This document shows positions 1 to 5,096 of a stretch of DNA of 5,096 nucleotides, piece after piece. Within the stretch, counting starts at the first letter, position 1, and each line of letters begins with the position of its first letter. The stretch lies in IMG/VR virus record IMGVR_UViG_3300017613_000229, positions 1 through 5,096 of that record. One strand, 5' to 3'. The notes under the pieces were generated by a model. It was given only the letters and a program-made list of their open reading frames with translations, was not told the origin of the DNA and did not search any database. Position numbers and translations under genes: made by a program. Origin of the DNA: a virus.

Positions 1-121
1 CTTCCTTATCAGCGCAAGAAAAAAATATTGTCATTCAAATGGCAGAAATGGATTTAGCTATTCTTACTCAACCCGATTCGGGTGAAATGTATAGAAAATT
101 AAAATTATTAAAAGGAGTTAA
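1..121 (+). repeat. Terminal redundancy, left copy of a 121-nt direct repeat marking a circular genome
   Basis: By eye, 1..121 (cttccttatcagcgcaagaaaaaaatattg...aaaggagttaa) matches 4976..5096 exactly. The repeat lies inside a continuous reading frame (VP2). Confidence 0.9.
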
Positions 122-692: not shown

Positions 693-724
693 GGGAACAG
701 TTACTACTTGATGTAACTGTTCCC
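693..724 (+). promoter_or_regulatory. Perfect 12-bp stem / 8-nt loop hairpin; candidate (+)-strand origin nick-site hairpin and/or transcript 3' end structure
   Basis: gggaacagttac (693..704) is the exact reverse complement of gtaactgttccc (713..724). The loop is TACTTGAT (705..712). It lies 10 nt after the VP3 stop and has no T-tract after the stem. Confidence 0.6.
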
Positions 725-793: not shown

Positions 794-823
794 TAGACAG
801 TTAACAAAAAATATTATTATAAT
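794..823 (+). promoter_or_regulatory. Candidate sigma70-type promoter for the accessory cassette and downstream genes
   Basis: TAGACA (794..799, 5/6 match to TTGACA), an 18-nt spacer, then TATAAT (818..823, perfect -10). It lies in the only sizeable non-coding stretch, upstream of same-strand genes. Confidence 0.4.
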
Positions 824-913
824 TAAGCAACAGCTATAGTATTGATATTTAACACTTTATACATTATGCGCAGTTCGCATAATAAACTCTTAGAAATCAA
901 GGAGTTATATATT

Positions 914-1069
914 ATGAATTTATTCAAAGCAATTAGAATCGGTGTAGCAATTCTAGATTGGTATGAAGAAGCATCAGAAGATGACCAAATCACTGGAAAA
1001 GAAATAGGTGAATTATTAGCTAAAATTACAACTTCAGAACTAGCCCAACATATTAATATTGAGTTATGA
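914..1069 (+). CDS. Small acidic hypothetical protein (51 aa), translationally coupled to the downstream peptidase
   Basis: AAGGAG at 899..904 lies 9 nt upstream of ATG 914. The product is MNLFKAIRIGVAILDWYEEASEDDQITGKEIGELLAKITTSELAQHINIEL. Its stop TGA (1067..1069) overlaps the peptidase ATG (1066..1068) as ATGA. The track's 75-aa version begins at a TTG (842) with no SD. I recognise no family. Confidence 0.45.
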   Translation: MNLFKAIRIGVAILDWYEEASEDDQITGKEIGELLAKITTSELAQHINIEL

Positions 1070-1383
1070 ACATCGACTTCAAGGAAGGAGTAACACCAGA
1101 CAAGCTTAAAGCTATCACCTTTCGCGCAATATTTATTTGCGCAGAAGTATTCAATCGAAAAAATTATCAATTAATAATTACATCAACACACGAAGGCGAT
1201 CACCTTCCCAATAGTTATCATTATAACGGTCAAGCATTCGATATTCGCACCTGGCGAATCCCTCAAACCTTCTTACCTTCAATGTGCGCAAAATTAACTA
1301 AAGCACTTCATGAAATAGATACAGACTTTCAAGTCATCTTAGAACCAGACCATATACACATCGAACTAGACAACAGGAAATAA
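1066..1383 (+). CDS. M15-family / LAS-type zinc peptidase (VanY or L-Ala-D-Glu peptidase-like), putative peptidoglycan hydrolase (endolysin)
   Basis: The 105-aa ORF contains SYHYNGQAFD (aa 50-59, nt 1213..1242), which fits SxHxxGxAxD with the H-x6-D zinc ligands. It also contains DHIH (aa 95-98, nt 1348..1359), which fits the DxxH third-ligand motif. Spacing and order match small phage M15 endolysins. Assigned by motif only, with no search run. Confidence 0.75.
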   Translation: MNIDFKEGVTPDKLKAITFRAIFICAEVFNRKNYQLIITSTHEGDHLPNSYHYNGQAFDIRTWRIPQTFLPSMCAKLTKALHEIDTDFQVILEPDHIHIELDNRK

Positions 1384-1581: not shown

Positions 1582-2565
1582 ATGCCATGCTACACACCCT
1601 TAGACGCATACGAAATTACAAGCAAATCACACCAGAAACCCAACGGGAAGAAATCAATAGTATTCAAACGTCCTCAAGAAACTACATACAAGGAAATGCA
1701 AGTACCTTGCGGACAATGTATCGGGTGCAAACTACTACGCAGCGTTACATGGGCATCGAGATGCATGCACGAGGCTTCACTACATGAACACAATTCATTT
1801 ATTACTCTTACCTATGATGACCAAAACTTACCTCAAGATCATTCACTTAGGAAAGACCATTTTCAAAACTTTCTTAAACGATTTAGAAAAGCTATCCATC
1901 CGATCAAAATACGTTATCTTATGTGTGGCGAATACGGTGACGATTCTTGGCGTCCTCACTATCACGCAATTATCTTCGGCTATGACTTTACACAAGGAAT
2001 TAAATATAACAAACAATGGTGCGAACGTAGACAACAAGTACAATCAGCAGAAGTCGAAAATCCTTACTATATCTCTCCCCTGCTCTCAAAATTATGGCCA
2101 GATGGATTCCATATTATCGCAGACGTTACCTTTGATACAGCCGCATATGTCGCTAGATACTGCACAAAAAAAATTACAGGTGATGAAGCAGAAGCACACT
2201 ACACCAGGAACATACTTGACTGGAATGAGTACACAGGAGAAATATTCCACTTTCAAGAAGTACAACTGGAACCAGAATACGGAACCATGTCAAGAAGACC
2301 AGGCATTGGTAAAGAATGGTACGAAAAATATAAACAAGATTGTTACCCATCAAACTTCCTTATTAACGATGGACATAAAACACCCATACCAAAATATTAT
2401 GACAAATTATTAGAACAAGAAGACGAACTACAATTTAAAGCAATGAAAACAGCAAGAGAATTAGCACTAATAGCACATAAAGATGATTTAACGCCAGAAA
2501 GACTGGCACAGAGACACACAACTAAACTAGCTCAATACGGGCAACTGAGGAGAAACAAAATATGA
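1582..2565 (+). CDS. VP4: VP4 replication initiation protein (HUH rolling-circle endonuclease, Microviridae gene A family)
   Basis: The 327-aa ORF has an N-terminal Cys cluster PCGQCIGC. Motif 1 is FITLTY (1798..1815), the HUH motif is HYHAIIF (1957..1977), and the catalytic di-tyrosine motif YVARY followed by CTKK (Y-x3-Y) is at 2146..2160. Confidence 0.93.
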   Translation: MPCYTPLDAYEITSKSHQKPNGKKSIVFKRPQETTYKEMQVPCGQCIGCKLLRSVTWASRCMHEASLHEHNSFITLTYDDQNLPQDHSLRKDHFQNFLKRFRKAIHPIKIRYLMCGEYGDDSWRPHYHAIIFGYDFTQGIKYNKQWCERRQQVQSAEVENPYYISPLLSKLWPDGFHIIADVTFDTAAYVARYCTKKITGDEAEAHYTRNILDWNEYTGEIFHFQEVQLEPEYGTMSRRPGIGKEWYEKYKQDCYPSNFLINDGHKTPIPKYYDKLLEQEDELQFKAMKTARELALIAHKDDLTPERLAQRHTTKLAQYGQLRRNKI

Positions 2566-2819
2566 AAATTAATATGTATTCAGTATACGACGATAAAGCA
2601 AAAGTATATTCACAACCATTTACAGCTATCAATGATGAAGTAGCTCAAAGAATTATGAAAAATTGCGTAGATAATCCAGAACATAATTACGCGCTTAATC
2701 CAGAAGATTACAAACTATTTAAGATCAGCTCTTTCGATGATTCAAATGCAGTTATAGATCCAGATAAAATACCACTATTAGACCTTATTACTTTAAAACG
2801 TACGGAGCCAGAACAATGA
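2562..2819 (+). CDS. VP5: VP5-like small non-structural protein (conserved gokushovirus ORF between VP4 and VP1)
   Basis: The 85-aa ORF has GAGGAG at 2547..2552, 9 nt upstream of the ATG. Both ends overlap neighbours as ATGA (VP4 stop at 2563..2565, VP1 start at 2816). YSVYDDKAKVYSQPFTAINDEVAQRIM...NPEDYKLFKISSFDD resembles the conserved pattern at this position in gokushoviruses (from memory). Confidence 0.7.
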   Translation: MKINMYSVYDDKAKVYSQPFTAINDEVAQRIMKNCVDNPEHNYALNPEDYKLFKISSFDDSNAVIDPDKIPLLDLITLKRTEPEQ

Positions 2820-4411
2820 AATCAAACATGGTAAATAGATTTACTCAAACACCAGAGGCAAATACACCACGTTCAACTTTCGATATGTCACATGGACATA
2901 AAACAACCATAGACGTAGATTATTTATATCCAATATATATTGAAGAAGCTCTCCCAGGGGACACACTCAATGTAAACATGACTGGCTTTGCAAGACTCAA
3001 TACACCTATATTTCCTATTATGGATAATATGACAATGCAAACCTTCTTCTTCGAAGTACCCACTAGATTAGTATGGGAAAACTTTAGAGCATTTATGGGT
3101 GAAAGACATCCAGATCCAGATTCAACTATTGATTACACAGTTCCCCAAGCAGTCGCAACATCCTCCTCAAATTTGGTCGGTCTACTTAGCGACTATATGG
3201 GAATACCCATAGAAGTAGACGGCCTTTCTTATTCAAACTTATTTCATAGGTCATATAATATGATATGGAATGAGTGGTTCAGAGATCAAAACTTACAAGA
3301 TTCAGTTACAGTGGATACAGATGCGGGGCCAGATGCTCCCGCAGATTACGTCTTATTAAAAGCAAACAAACGACATGACTATTTCACATCAGCCCTACCC
3401 TGGCCACAAAAAGGAGATTCAGTAGATTTACCATTAGGTACATCAGCACCAGTTACAGGCATAGGCGCAGTAAATCAAACATTCAATACAGGACCATCAA
3501 CTGCTTATGAGACAGATGGAACCGGTACGGAATCATATGCAGATCATAAAAATATATGGGATGCAGGATCACAAAATCAAATATATATAGAAGAAGACCC
3601 AAACAATGCAGGCTTTCCAAATATTAGAGCAGATTTATCAGCAGCTACATCAGCAACAATTAATCAATTAAGAGAAGCATTTCAAATACAAAAACTTTTA
3701 GAACGAGATGCAAGAGGCGGTACCAGGTACACAGAAATAATCCGCTCACACTTCAATGTAACAAGCCCAGATGGTAGAGCATGGAGACCTGTATATCTCG
3801 GAGGCGGCAAATCTTATGTCAATATATCGCCAATTGCTCAAACTTCTTCTACAGATGTTACAACGCCCCAGGGAAACTTGGCTGCAATGGGTACTAGTGT
3901 TCTCGATAATCATGGCTTCACTAAGTCTTTCACTGAGCATAGTATTGTTATTGGTCTCGTATGCGTACGTGCAGACTTAACCTATCAACAAGGACTAAAC
4001 AGACATTTCAGCCGTTCAACACGTTATGATTACTACTGGCCTTCCCTATCAACTATTGGTGAACAAGAAGTACTTAATAAAGAAATATATGCTCAAAACG
4101 ATGCAAACGATGACTTAGTATTTGGCTATCAAGAACGCTATGCAGAATACCGCTACAAACCTTCCATGATAACCGGAAAAATGCGGTCAGCTATCGGAGC
4201 GCATACAGGCAGCCTTGACTCATGGCACTTAGCAGAAGAATTCGGCTCCCTACCCGCTTTAAACTCAACTTTTATCGCATCTAATACACCAGTCGATAGA
4301 GTAGTAGCAGTAACAGACGAGCCAGATTTCTTACTCGATACATTCTTCAATATCAAAGCAGCCAGACCTATGCCACTTTATGGCATTCCAGGCATGCTAG
4401 ACCACTTCTGA
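2816..4411 (+). CDS. VP1: VP1 major capsid protein (Microviridae F-type capsid, gokushovirus form)
   Basis: The 531-aa ORF has GGAG at 2804..2807, 8 nt upstream of the ATG. The N-terminus [32 protein letters not shown]...[33 protein letters not shown] is the hallmark gokushovirus VP1 signature. Size is typical. Confidence 0.95.
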
Positions 4412-5096
4412 TGAAACATTTAAAACTACCTTACAAACAACTAGGCTTTATAGGAAGCCTAATATCAGCCGGCGCCAGCTTACTTGGTGGTGCCCTGGCT
4501 AATAGAGGCAGACAACAAGCAGCTTCAACAGTAGGACAATTTAATCAAGCATCATCAGCAACACAAATGGCATTCGAAGAAAGAATGTCAAACACAGCAC
4601 ATCAACGACAAGTAAAAGACTTAAGAGCAGCCGGACTTAATCCAATACTCTCAGCAAAATATGGCGGCGCATCAACACCACATGGATCCACTGCAACGAT
4701 GCCAATGTACGACCAACAAGATATATTCACACCTGCCGTTAATTCAGGCTTACAGGCATATCATACACAAAATCAAGGTGCTAAAATAAATACTGAGATA
4801 CAGCAAATGGAGCAAAACATTGAAGAATCCAAAGCAAAAGCCAATCTTAGTGACCATCAAGCACGAAAAATCAATTACGAGATTCCTAAAATTATTGCAG
4901 ATACTAATCTTTCTCGTGATTCTGGGCATAATATTCAAACAGATACTCAGTTAAAAAAACTGCAATCCGTTGTTACTTCCTTATCAGCGCAAGAAAAAAA
5001 TATTGTCATTCAAATGGCAGAAATGGATTTAGCTATTCTTACTCAACCCGATTCGGGTGAAATGTATAGAAAATTAAAATTATTAAAAGGAGTTAA
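4411..5096 (+). CDS. VP2: VP2 minor capsid / DNA pilot protein, N-terminal part (runs off the window end; unique part ends at 4975 and continues at nt 1)
   Basis: ATG 4411 overlaps the VP1 stop (TGATG). There is no stop through 5096. The N-terminus is Gly/Ala-rich and hydrophobic ([20 protein letters not shown]). It is followed by [29 protein letters not shown], the conserved gokushovirus VP2 motif, then a long heptad-like Q/E/K-rich segment. It is absent from the ORF track because it has no stop in the window. Confidence 0.85.
4976..5096 (+). repeat. Terminal redundancy, right copy of the 121-nt direct repeat
   Basis: Identical to 1..121 by eye. Confidence 0.9.

What the first reader, a model, noticed from the sequence alone, without database searches (positions are those of the whole stretch)
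1066..1383. M15/LAS zinc peptidase (putative endolysin) encoded by a gokushovirus-type microvirus
Lysis in Microviridae is classically a single-gene process: phiX174 E blocks MraY. No lysis gene is established for Gokushovirinae. This 4975-nt genome spends about 6% of its length on a 105-aa protein with a complete SxHxxGxAxD ... DxxH zinc-peptidase signature, the chemistry of VanY, phage T5 and Listeria-phage L-Ala-D-Glu endolysins. It sits in the variable VP3-to-VP4 gap, so it looks like an acquired accessory module. I recall M15-type peptidases being noted sporadically in metagenomic Microviridae, but they remain functionally uncharacterised. At 105 aa it would be near the minimal size for the fold, with no cell-wall-binding domain and no obvious signal peptide.
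Basis: partly seen in the sequence, partly recalled or inferred. Interest (0 to 1): 0.8.

Follow-up and report, generated by a model that had tools for sequence, protein, structure and literature searches.

The report
Mini cell-wall peptidase in a gokushovirus
A 5-kb single-stranded DNA phage carries a real 105-residue gene for a zinc cell-wall peptidase, folded like the Hedgehog/D-Ala-D-Ala-peptidase domain and most likely used to burst the host; this kind of accessory lysis gene has been reported in such phages since 2012, so it is a tidy but ordinary find.

Summary
ORF 1066-1383 (+) is a 105-aa gene under purifying selection in a circular 4975-nt gokushovirus, in the VP3-VP4 gap. It has S50-x-H52-x2-G-x-A-x-D59.

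One correction: the conserved third motif is H96-x-H98 plus E93, not "DxxH". D95 varies even among close homologs.

No Pfam, NCBIfam or PHROG model recognises the single sequence. An exhaustive profile search finds 4,395 cluster representatives, mostly ~100 aa. The family profile hits Sonic hedgehog N-domains (E=1.2e-6), with H52/D59/H98 on the aligned residues that I take, from memory of the literature, to be the Shh zinc ligands. The AlphaFold model (pLDDT 97) matches Hedgehog N-domains, then LAS and M15A phage peptidases. So it belongs to the LAS / Hedgehog-DD-peptidase superfamily. It is nearer Hedgehog/M15A than VanY, T5 or Ply500, and distinct from the classical microvirus M15_3 peptidase.

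An endolysin role is inferred, not shown. In non-microvirus loci the gene sits next to small membrane ORFs (47% vs 10% of controls). In microviruses it travels with tiny hydrophobic partner ORFs; here the partner is a translationally coupled 51-aa ORF (914-1069).

Peptidases as microvirus lysis genes are already published, and one microvirus wall hydrolase has been tested. Verdict: new member of a known kind, modest interest.

The parts
1066..1383 (+). Gene for a 105-aa single-domain zinc peptidase of the LAS / Hedgehog-DD-peptidase fold (putative endolysin); stop TAA at 1381-1383
   Evidence: ORF. dN/dS 0.19 vs L005 and 0.23 vs L085. Family of 4,395 cluster representatives. Profile hit to Shh-N at E=1.2e-6. 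AF2 pLDDT 97. Foldseek to Hedgehog N-domains, TMq 0.62-0.73 for the hits at E<=0.001.
1201..1242 (+). Codons H46...S50-x-H52-x2-G55-x-A57-x-D59: first two predicted metal ligands (H52, D59) and a conserved upstream His (H46)
   Evidence: Invariant S50, H52 and D59; H46 99% and A57 99% in 100 members. Aligned to Shh 'HHSEESLHYEGRAVD'.
1342..1359 (+). Codons E93-P-D-H96-I-H98: the H-x-H motif (H98 the predicted third metal ligand) and a conserved Glu
   Evidence: H96 and H98 invariant, E93 90%, D95 not conserved. Aligned to Shh 'HIH'.
914..1069 (+). Conserved 51-aa partner ORF (MNLFKAIRIGVAILDWYEEASEDD...). It has a hydrophobic/amphipathic N-terminal helix and an acidic tail. Its TGA stop overlaps the peptidase ATG (ATGA), which implies translational coupling.
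   Evidence: Sequence. Homologous ORF directly upstream of the peptidase in L006, L007, L085 and L155. pN/pS 0.24/0.57 vs L006. No homolog found in the protein database other than itself.
900..904 (+). Shine-Dalgarno-like AGGAG, 9 nt upstream of the partner ORF start
   Evidence: Read directly from the sequence.
794..823 (+). Sigma-70-like promoter candidate (TAGACA-18-TATAAT, 11/12) upstream of the two-gene module
   Evidence: Consensus scan. The number of sites is not above the shuffle expectation, so this is only a candidate.

Best explanation
ORF 1066-1383 encodes a compact, single-domain, zinc-dependent peptidoglycan peptidase of the LAS (Hedgehog / D-Ala-D-Ala-peptidase) fold. The predicted metal ligands are H52, D59 and H98. 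H46, E93, H96 and R61 are conserved residues close in sequence to the predicted metal ligands.

It belongs to a large family of ~100-aa proteins found in phage and prophage-like contigs and in 67 loci of MAG or isolate genomes. Current Pfam, PHROG and NCBIfam models largely miss this family.

In this gokushovirus it is an accessory module. A candidate promoter precedes a 51-aa partner ORF, which is translationally coupled to the peptidase. The module sits in the VP3-VP4 gap.

The protein is made in the cytoplasm without a signal peptide. Late in infection it reaches the murein through a membrane lesion made by a small viral protein, cuts the peptide part of peptidoglycan and so lyses the host, which a related MAG contig suggests may be a Gram-negative gammaproteobacterium.

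Shown: the gene is real and under purifying selection; superfamily and fold; conservation of the metal-site residues; association with small membrane ORFs.

Inferred: zinc binding, muralytic activity, which bond is cleaved, how the protein crosses the membrane, and its role in lysis.
For: Gene reality: dN/dS is 0.05-0.23 in the unsaturated comparisons within each subclade.

Superfamily:
- The A1 profile hits Shh-N at E=1.6e-3, and the A2 profile (100 sequences) at E=1.2e-6, aligning SxHxxGxAxD and HxH residue for residue.
- 38/100 members hit HH_signal and 20/100 hit Peptidase_M15_3 at E<=0.01.
- The family consensus scores 25.0 bits on HH_signal (cut-off 22.1) and 22.3 on M15_3 (cut-off 23.2).

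Fold:
- The AF2 model has pLDDT 97.2 and pTM 0.89.
- Foldseek against PDB is dominated by Hedgehog N-domains (E about 1e-4; TMq 0.62-0.73 for hits at E<=0.001), followed by the zinc-containing C-terminal domain of S. pneumoniae VldE.
- With the first, lower-confidence model MepA and LdcB appeared, at E about 0.1.
- BFVD hits are a Microviridae protein auto-named 'Sonic hedgehog' (TMq 0.84, 33% id), 'Murein endopeptidase K', 'Peptidase M15A C-terminal', an LT_GEWL fusion and microvirus peptidases.

Lysis context:
- 26/55 standalone family genes in non-microvirus loci have an adjacent same-strand small ORF with a TM segment, against 22/226 control genes (odds ratio 8.3, p=2e-9). Examples are, and one neighbour weakly hits a holin PHROG.
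- In most of the microvirus loci examined a tiny hydrophobic ORF abuts the peptidase; 15 loci match one of three motifs.

Accessory nature:
- Relative MH572291 lacks the module and has a 225-nt gap.
- Microvirus members fall in at least 6 separate clades at different genome positions.

Literature agrees on a lysis role for microvirus peptidases (PMC3394797; PMC9239249; PMC11499846). A microvirus peptidoglycan hydrolase has been shown to be active (PMC11980548).
Against: - There is no biochemical evidence for this family.
- The single sequence has no significant hit in Pfam, NCBIfam, PHROGs or PDB.
- The partner ORF in this genome is not a convincing holin. Its hydrophobic stretch is only ~17 residues and contains K5, R8 and D15 (maximum KD19 of 1.26), and its tail is acidic rather than basic.
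- No spanin or other outer-membrane disruptor is evident.
- One family member (P0008) has Gln in place of H52, so not every member need be catalytic.
- Hedgehog itself, the closest solved relative, is, to my recollection, not an established peptidase.
Confidence: 0.7

Rival explanations
1. The peptidase never leaves the cytoplasm. Like VanX or VanY, it hydrolyses D-Ala-D-Ala or the pentapeptide of UDP-MurNAc/lipid-linked precursors. This starves wall synthesis, so growing cells lyse. It would be an enzymatic version of the 'protein antibiotic' single-gene lysis of phiX174 E.
For: No signal peptide or TM segment. No convincing holin in this genome. VanX and VanY, as I recall them, are LAS enzymes with the same SxHxxGxAxD motif, and the family consensus weakly hits Pfam VanY at E=0.046. 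Microviruses classically lyse by blocking wall synthesis (established knowledge; summarised in PMC3394797).
Against: Across the family the gene is strongly associated with small membrane ORFs, and microviruses keep a tiny hydrophobic partner next to it. That fits an exported endolysin. The domain is also fused to large virion-type proteins and to a lytic transglycosylase domain, which act on assembled murein. The closest sequence and structure matches are Hedgehog/M15A-type, not VanX/VanY.
Confidence: 0.1
2. It is a peptidoglycan peptidase used for something other than end-of-cycle lysis, for example local wall opening during DNA entry (virion-associated) or remodelling of the wall during infection.
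For: Family domains occur at the C-terminus of very large proteins (870, 746 and 1075 aa). BFVD structural neighbours include a tape-measure protein and large putative cell-wall hydrolases. Ebor Gp7 was detected in trace amounts in virions (PMC11980548).
Against: The gene here is standalone, is not adjacent to VP1 or VP2, and is coupled to a small non-structural ORF. Gokushoviruses without the gene infect normally, so entry does not need it (established knowledge). A lysis-cassette context dominates.
Confidence: 0.08
3. It is a non-catalytic Hedgehog-like binding domain that has kept the fold but binds a host envelope component rather than cleaving it.
For: The closest solved relatives are Hedgehog ligands, for which, to my recollection, no peptidase activity is established. 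One family member has lost H52.
Against: All metal-site and nearby residues (H46, H52, D59, E93, H96, H98) are intact here, and each is 90-100% conserved across 100 members. That is the signature of a maintained active site.
Confidence: 0.05
4. The ORF is a chance open frame and the motif a coincidence.
For: The single sequence has no significant hit in Pfam, NCBIfam or PHROGs.
Against: Syntenic homologs at 49-71% identity show dN/dS well below 1. There are 1,765 representatives at E<=1e-10, and the fold prediction is confident.
Confidence: 0.01

Closest known systems
Hedgehog N-terminal signalling domain (Pfam HH_signal PF01085; PDB 1VHH and others) and the bacterial 'Hh/DD-peptidase' M15A subgroup
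   Same: It is the best sequence and structure match. The shared motifs are H-x5-S-x-H-x2-G-x-A-x-D and H-x-H. H46/H52/D59/H96/H98 align with Shh residues that I number H135/H141/D148/H181/H183 from memory. The family consensus passes the HH_signal gathering score. PMC8052667 (abstract) describes Shh as similar to bacterial peptidoglycan metallopeptidases of an M15A subgroup.
   Different: Only positions about 100-160 of the 161-position HH_signal model are matched. The calcium-site acidic residues of Shh (WDEDG region) are not conserved (THEGD here), judged by eye only. This is a ~100-aa standalone phage protein with no lipid modification or autoprocessing domain. The window protein itself scores 13.1 bits, below the 22.1 cut-off.
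Peptidase_M15_3 (PF08291) peptidases of Microviridae (Roux et al. 2012; e.g. MG945328) and M15A phage endolysins (e.g. Burkholderia phage ST79, PMC5025407)
   Same: Same superfamily and the same proposed job: an accessory, horizontally acquired, single-domain peptidase of 100-130 aa in microviruses, proposed to be an endolysin. It shares the SxHxxGxAxD motif, and the hhalign register is correct.
   Different: It is a separate subfamily. MG945328 hits M15_3 at 5.7e-16, while the window protein does not hit it at all. hhalign of the family against MG945328 gives only E=0.023 and probability 2%. MG945328 has 'FLHIS' where this family has 'HIHIE'. In GenBank the 14 microvirus records that hold this family either call the gene 'hypothetical protein' or leave it unannotated.
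VanY / T5 endolysin / Ply500 endopeptidase domain
   Same: LAS superfamily, zinc site with H-x6-D, small globular enzymatically active domain, and use as a phage endolysin (established knowledge; PMC3394797).
   Different: Their third motif is D/E-x-x-H, whereas here D95 is not conserved and the motif is H-x-H. The consensus hits Pfam VanY only at E=0.046. None of these structures was among the top 50 Foldseek PDB hits with the good model. An LdcB/VanY-like structure appeared only at E about 0.1 with the first, lower-confidence model.
Ebor Gp7, the experimentally verified peptidoglycan hydrolase of a microvirus (PMC11980548)
   Same: An accessory wall-degrading enzyme in a microvirus, about 100-150 aa, in a genome that also encodes a tiny membrane protein (Gp1, 45 aa).
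   Different: It comes from a different subfamily of microviruses ('Tainavirinae'). Its HHpred template is 6SSC_A, and I did not establish any relation to this family here. Its activity was shown; for the present protein nothing has been tested.
phiX174 E-type single-gene lysis
   Same: The outcome is the same: lysis by a microvirus with a very small genome.
   Different: E is an overprinted membrane protein that inhibits MraY and has no enzymatic activity. The present gene is a non-overlapping, acquired enzyme gene.

Membership tests
LAS metallopeptidases (lysostaphin / D-Ala-D-Ala carboxypeptidase / Sonic hedgehog; Pfam clan Peptidase_MD) | First metal-binding motif H-x(3-6)-D | tested here: met
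   H52-x6-D59, both invariant in 100/100 members. Aligned to the 'SLHYEGRAVD' segment of Shh.
LAS metallopeptidases | Second motif H-x-H, whose last His is the third metal ligand | tested here: met
   H96-I-H98, both invariant. Aligned to the 'HIH' of Shh.
LAS metallopeptidases | Common fold: central antiparallel sheet carrying the ligands, packed against helices | tested here: met
AF2 pLDDT 97 with D59 on strand 57-61, H52 in the short helix 51-54 just before it, and H96/H98 on strand 96-101. Foldseek probability 1.0 to Hedgehog N-domains, TMq 0.62-0.73 for hits at E<=0.001, then VldE.
LAS metallopeptidases | The three ligands converge on one Zn2+ ion; zinc-dependent hydrolysis | not testable with these tools
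No biochemistry is available.
Pfam Peptidase_M15_3 (PF08291) | Score at or above the gathering cut-off (23.2 bits) | tested here: not met
   No hit for the window protein. The family consensus scores 22.3 bits. 20/100 members hit at E<=0.01.
Pfam HH_signal (PF01085) | Score at or above the gathering cut-off (22.1 bits) over the domain | tested here: not met
   The window protein scores 13.1 bits, E=0.078. The family consensus scores 25.0 bits and P0029 27.1 bits, so some members pass. Only about model positions 100-160 of 161 are covered.
VanY / T5 / Ply500-type M15B/C endopeptidases | Third motif D/E-x-x-H with a conserved acidic catalytic residue three positions before the His ligand | tested here: not met
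   D95 is T, N or D among close homologs. The consensus hits Pfam VanY only at E=0.046.
Canonical holin-endolysin lysis cassette | Cytoplasmic muralytic enzyme without a secretion signal | tested here: met
   No hydrophobic N-terminus; maximum KD19 is 0.85. Muralytic activity itself is inferred.
Canonical holin-endolysin lysis cassette | Adjacent small membrane protein (holin) with at least one TM segment | tested here: inconclusive
   In the window the coupled 51-aa ORF has only a ~17-residue amphipathic/hydrophobic N-terminus (KD19 of 1.26) and an acidic tail. In other loci it is met: 47% vs 10% of controls, and partner ORF types 1 and 2 in other microviruses.

The most novel reading that the evidence does not exclude
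The gene defines an unannotated, very abundant family of ~100-aa Hedgehog-like mini-peptidases. In microviruses this family has repeatedly formed minimal two-gene lysis cassettes with different tiny partners.

In this clade the partner is not a holin. It is a translationally coupled acidic 51-aa protein. It might be helped by a conserved overprinted membrane protein in the +1 frame of the replication gene, or the enzyme might act from the cytoplasm on wall precursors.

Either case would be a lysis strategy not yet described for Microviridae.
Probability: 0.12. Interest if true: 0.65.

Novelty: new member of a known kind. Interest (0 to 1): 0.3.

Why it matters
How gokushoviruses lyse their hosts is poorly documented, and small single-domain endolysins are useful as enzybiotic scaffolds.

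This analysis shows that part of the "hypothetical protein" content of microvirus genomes is a distinct Hedgehog-like branch of the LAS peptidases. All 14 GenBank microvirus records that hold this family leave the gene unannotated or call it hypothetical. Standard domain libraries miss the family, yet it has more than 4,000 cluster representatives at 50% identity.

The family also offers a set of natural minimal lysis cassettes, each a tiny partner ORF plus a ~100-aa enzyme, that could be tested directly.

The general idea is already in the literature: microviruses acquire M15-type peptidases for lysis. The gain is therefore better annotation and a testable system, not a new principle.

Tried and rejected
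**Searches that gave nothing useful**
- Single-sequence searches of the peptidase gave nothing significant. Pfam gave only HH_signal at E=0.078; PHROGs gave only unknown-function families at E>0.02; NCBIfam gave none. PDB phmmer gave only chance hits, a zinc finger and Swd1.
- PHROGs on 100 family members gave essentially no coverage; one member hit an endolysin PHROG at 9e-5.
- PHROGs on ten small neighbours in tailed-phage loci gave only one weak holin hit at E=0.0047. The holin inference therefore rests on hydrophobicity alone.
- Pfam on long fusion proteins carrying the domain (P0134, P0144 and the 870-aa protein of L011) identified no partner domains.
- A homolog search for the 51-aa partner ORF returned only itself. 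Its relatives were found only by reading the loci directly.
- Cluster names for ten family members: none carries a name.

**Checks that could not be completed**
- Metal-site geometry: model coordinates are not exposed to the scripting environment, so no distances or superposition on T5 or Ply500 could be computed.

**Ideas rejected**
- Alt-frame TM ORFs inside VP1 (3771-3980) and VP2 (4820-4954) as hidden holins: not significant against codon shuffles in the window (p=0.12 and 0.13).
- That this gene is the same family as the classical microvirus M15_3 peptidase: rejected.
Full report
**1. What is in the window**

The window is a complete circular microvirus genome of 4975 nt, written with a 121-nt terminal duplication. 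All genes are on the + strand:

| Gene | Coordinates | Evidence |
|---|---|---|
| VP2 (pilot) | 4411, wrapping to 209 | position |
| VP3 | 222-683 | Chlamy_scaf, 1.5e-25 |
| Small ORF | 914-1069 | see section 7 |
| Finding | 1066-1383 | this report |
| Basic 36-aa ORF8-like protein | 1388-1498 | position, composition |
| VP4 | 1582-2565 | REP_ORF2-G2P, 3.8e-22 |
| VP5 | 2562-2819 | Phage_ORF5 |
| VP1 | 2816-4411 | Phage_F, 2.6e-177 |

**2. The observation**

The 105-aa ORF is exactly where stated. It contains S50-x-H52-x2-G55-x-A57-x-D59 and D95-x-x-H98. It has no hydrophobic N-terminus or TM segment.

The gene is real. Syntenic homologs of 49-71% identity occur in related gokushovirus contigs (L005, L006, L007, L085, L155, L156). 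The unsaturated comparisons within each subclade give dN/dS of 0.05-0.23.

One detail needs correcting. D95 is not conserved even among close homologs. What is conserved is H96-x-H98 with E93 before it.

**3. What family it is**

On its own the sequence is not recognised by Pfam (only HH_signal at E=0.078), PHROGs, NCBIfam or PDB.

A word-indexed search found just 8 relatives. An exhaustive HMM search with their alignment found 4,395 cluster representatives at E<=1e-3 and 1,765 at E<=1e-10. Most of the top 150 are standalone proteins of about 100 aa.

In an alignment of 100 of them, K6, T39, S50, H52, D59, L81, H96 and H98 are invariant. H46, A57, R61, E93 and E100 are at least 90% conserved.

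Links to known families:
- The 100-sequence profile hits Sonic/Indian/Desert hedgehog N-terminal domains in PDB at E=1.2e-6 to 1.4e-5.
- The alignment puts 'HxxxSxHYxGxAxD' on Shh 'HHSEESLHYEGRAVD' and 'HIH' on 'HIH' (already E=1.6e-3 with 8 sequences).
- The aligned positions in chain 1VHH are 108, 115 and 150. The 162-residue chain is consistent with a start at residue 34, so these correspond to H141, D148 and H183. I recall those as the zinc ligands of Shh (the 1VHH paper); I did not check the construct start or the ligand identities with a tool. By the same numbering H46 falls on H135.
- E93 lies one position from the residue aligned with E177.
- Individually, 38/100 members hit HH_signal and 20/100 hit Peptidase_M15_3 at E<=0.01.
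- The majority consensus scores 25.0 bits on HH_signal (cut-off 22.1), 22.3 on M15_3 (cut-off 23.2) and E=0.046 on VanY.

**4. Structure**

With 8 sequences, AlphaFold gave pLDDT 88, with a weak 41-50 loop. With 100 sequences it gave pLDDT 97.2 and pTM 0.89.

Foldseek against PDB returns Hedgehog N-domains first (E about 1e-4; TMq 0.62-0.73 for hits at E<=0.001; probability 1.0). Next comes the zinc-containing C-terminal domain of S. pneumoniae VldE. The first, lower-confidence model also picked up MepA and the VanY-like LdcB, at E about 0.1.

Against predicted viral structures the best match is a Microviridae protein that an automated pipeline had named 'Sonic hedgehog protein' (TMq 0.84, 33% identity). 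It is followed by:
- an uncharacterised Salinibacter phage protein;
- an LT_GEWL fusion;
- 'Murein endopeptidase K';
- several 'Peptidase M15A C-terminal' proteins;
- a tape-measure protein;
- two microvirus 'peptidases'.

I could not measure the metal-site geometry because coordinates are not exposed.

Conclusion: this is a LAS / Hedgehog-DD-peptidase fold, on the Hedgehog/M15A side of the superfamily.

**5. Relation to the peptidases already known in microviruses**

MG945328, a microvirus 'peptidase' discussed in PMC9239249, hits Pfam M15_3 at 5.7e-16. It aligns to the present family only weakly (hhalign E=0.023, probability 2%), although in the correct register. It has a single His where this family has HxH. 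The window gene is therefore a different subfamily doing what is presumably the same job.

In GenBank phage records the family occurs in 14 Microviridae and a few tailed phages (five Salinibacter records, one Microcystis, four uncultured). Almost all of these genes are 'hypothetical protein' or unannotated; one sits under a feature labelled 'putative DNA methylase'.

**6. Function from context**

- Of the 80 IMG/VR loci, about 14 are microviruses and the rest are larger, presumably tailed-phage, contigs.
- In non-microvirus loci of at least 7 kb, from both the IMG/VR and the genome-collection scans, 26 of 55 standalone family genes have an adjacent same-strand ORF of 30-160 aa with a TM segment. 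For control genes of similar size in the same loci the figure is 22 of 226 (odds ratio 8.3, p=2e-9). Examples include a putative lipoprotein downstream in L030.
- In some proteins the domain is the C-terminus of very large proteins.
- In cellular genomes it is rare: 67 loci in a collection representing 185,579 species. These are mostly MAG contigs of many phyla.

This pattern is what one expects of a phage endolysin or wall-degrading module.

**7. The module in microviruses**

In most of the microvirus loci I examined, a tiny hydrophobic ORF abuts the peptidase. Fifteen loci match one of three partner motifs:

| Type | Partner ORF | Position | Loci |
|---|---|---|---|
| 1 | 29-31 aa, 'MxWLAxNWxxIMTxLNxxGLL..K+' | upstream | L010, L018, L023, L034, L050 |
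| 2 | 34-58 aa, ending '..LGLFINPKKK' | downstream | L037, L040, L049, L082, and the Prevotella prophage L123 |
| 3 | the window's 51-aa ORF | upstream | window, L006, L007, L085, L155 |

L005 has a different 34-aa hydrophobic ORF in that place. In L020 and L024 I saw no small partner ORF, and L154 and L156 were not checked for one.

The type-3 ORF (914-1069) has an AGGAG Shine-Dalgarno-like site. Its TGA stop overlaps the peptidase ATG (ATGA). It is under purifying selection (pN/pS 0.24/0.57 vs L006). However, it has only a ~17-residue amphipathic N-terminus and an acidic tail (net charge -6), so calling it a holin would be a stretch.

Upstream lie a perfect 12-bp hairpin (693-724) and an 11/12 sigma-70-like site (794-823).

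A neighbour-joining tree puts the microvirus peptidases into at least six separate clades among non-microvirus sequences. The three larger clades each have their own partner type and genome position. This agrees with published evidence for repeated acquisition.

Relative MH572291 (4248 nt) lacks the module and has only 225 nt between VP3 and VP4. The module is therefore accessory.

**8. Host hint**

L085 is the first 4.6 kb of a 354-kb contig of a Gammaproteobacteria MAG. It is a related gokushovirus carrying the same partner-plus-peptidase module. It could be a prophage or a chimeric assembly, and I could not fetch the junction.

**9. What is known**

- M15_3 peptidases were found in 11 Microviridae (5 of them Gokushovirinae) and proposed as endolysins acquired horizontally. 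Five of them sit next to an unknown ORF (PMC3394797).
- Peptidase genes are listed as the typical lysis-associated accessory genes of microviruses (PMC9239249).
- Isolated roseophage microviruses carry an M15 metallopeptidase gene, and Rhizobium microviruses are described as having an endolysin (lys) gene. The small amoyvirus vB_RpoMi-Mini has an M15-family peptidase-related gene.
- Purified Gp7 of the microvirus Ebor degrades peptidoglycan. Its authors call it the first experimentally verified peptidoglycan hydrolase of an ssDNA phage (PMC11980548).

**10. Verdict**

Mechanism: a cytoplasmically made mini-endolysin is released through a membrane lesion made by a small partner. I give this about 0.7. 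The export step is the weakest link in this particular genome.

Novelty: a new member of a known kind, in a divergent and poorly annotated Hedgehog-like subfamily. Interest is modest.

Noticed in passing
window 1784-2413 (+), inside VP4 (1582-2565), +1 frame: The +1 frame of the replication gene is free of stop codons for 250 codons, and an ATG at 1784 gives a 209-aa ORF. None of 2000 codon shuffles of VP4 reaches this length (mean longest run 64). The same holds in relatives L005 (247 codons), L006 (247) and L007 (221), and a 192-aa ORF is present in L156. It does not hold in L085 (85 codons) or, from its ORF list, L155. The ORF has a conserved TM-like segment (aa 43-63, YVILCVANTVTILGVLTITQL). 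It is a candidate overprinted membrane protein, reminiscent of phiX174 K/B within gene A. Only one GenBank microvirus (MH572323) shares it.
   Followed up: partly
window 914-1069 (+): A 51-aa ORF is translationally coupled (ATGA) to the peptidase. It is conserved in L006, L007, L085 and L155 and is under purifying selection. It has an amphipathic N-terminal helix, an acidic tail and a conserved 'WYxxASEDxxITxxEIxEL' core. No database homolog was found, and its function is unknown.
   Followed up: partly
L010 2694-2783; L018 434-529; L023 1773-1865; L034 1320-1415; L050 4507-4716; L037 1954-2058; L040 2410-2514; L049 1176-1280; L082 4756-4932; L123 4334-4507: Two other families of tiny (29-58 aa) single-helix ORFs with basic C-termini sit immediately beside the homologous peptidase in other microvirus clades. 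These look like minimal holin-endolysin cassettes. The small ORFs seem largely unannotated.
   Followed up: partly
window 693-724 and 794-823: Just after VP3 there is a perfect 12-bp-stem hairpin (GGGAACAGTTAC-8 nt loop-GTAACTGTTCCC). About 70 nt downstream is a strong sigma-70-like site (TAGACA-18-TATAAT, 11/12), in the otherwise non-coding 684-913 stretch. These are a possible terminator or origin structure and a promoter for the accessory module.
   Followed up: no
window 1-121 and 4976-5096: An exact 121-nt direct repeat at the two ends is the circular-assembly overlap. The true genome length is 4975 nt, and VP2 runs across the junction (4411 to 209).
   Followed up: yes
L085 1-4576 (contig CAXBLT010000001.1, 354,610 nt, Gammaproteobacteria MAG): A related gokushovirus (VP1 80% identical) with the same partner-plus-peptidase module occupies the very start of a 354-kb bacterial MAG contig. 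It is either an integrated prophage, which would give a host clue, or a chimeric join.
   Followed up: partly
L156 218-1362: In this 2.5-kb contig a VP1 gene truncated at 277 aa runs directly into a 71%-identical peptidase gene (4-nt overlap). VP2, VP3 and the partner ORF are missing. It looks like a deletion variant or an assembly chimera.
   Followed up: no
protein P0008 (cluster of 5 sequences), alignment A1: This 36-39%-identical family member has Gln in place of the metal-ligand His (H52) while keeping D59, H96 and H98. It may be an inactive or altered-metal variant.
   Followed up: no
L011 3078-5690; proteins P0134 (746 aa), P0144 (1075 aa): The ~100-aa domain also occurs as the C-terminal domain of very large proteins whose remainder has no Pfam match. 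These may be virion-associated wall-degrading proteins.
   Followed up: partly
window 3771-3980 and 4820-4954 (+): Alt-frame ORFs inside VP1 (69 aa) and VP2 (44 aa) have very hydrophobic segments (KD19 of 2.5). They are not longer than expected from codon shuffles in the window (p=0.12 and 0.13) and are only marginal in L005 and L006 (p=0.01-0.02). They are probably chance.
   Followed up: yes
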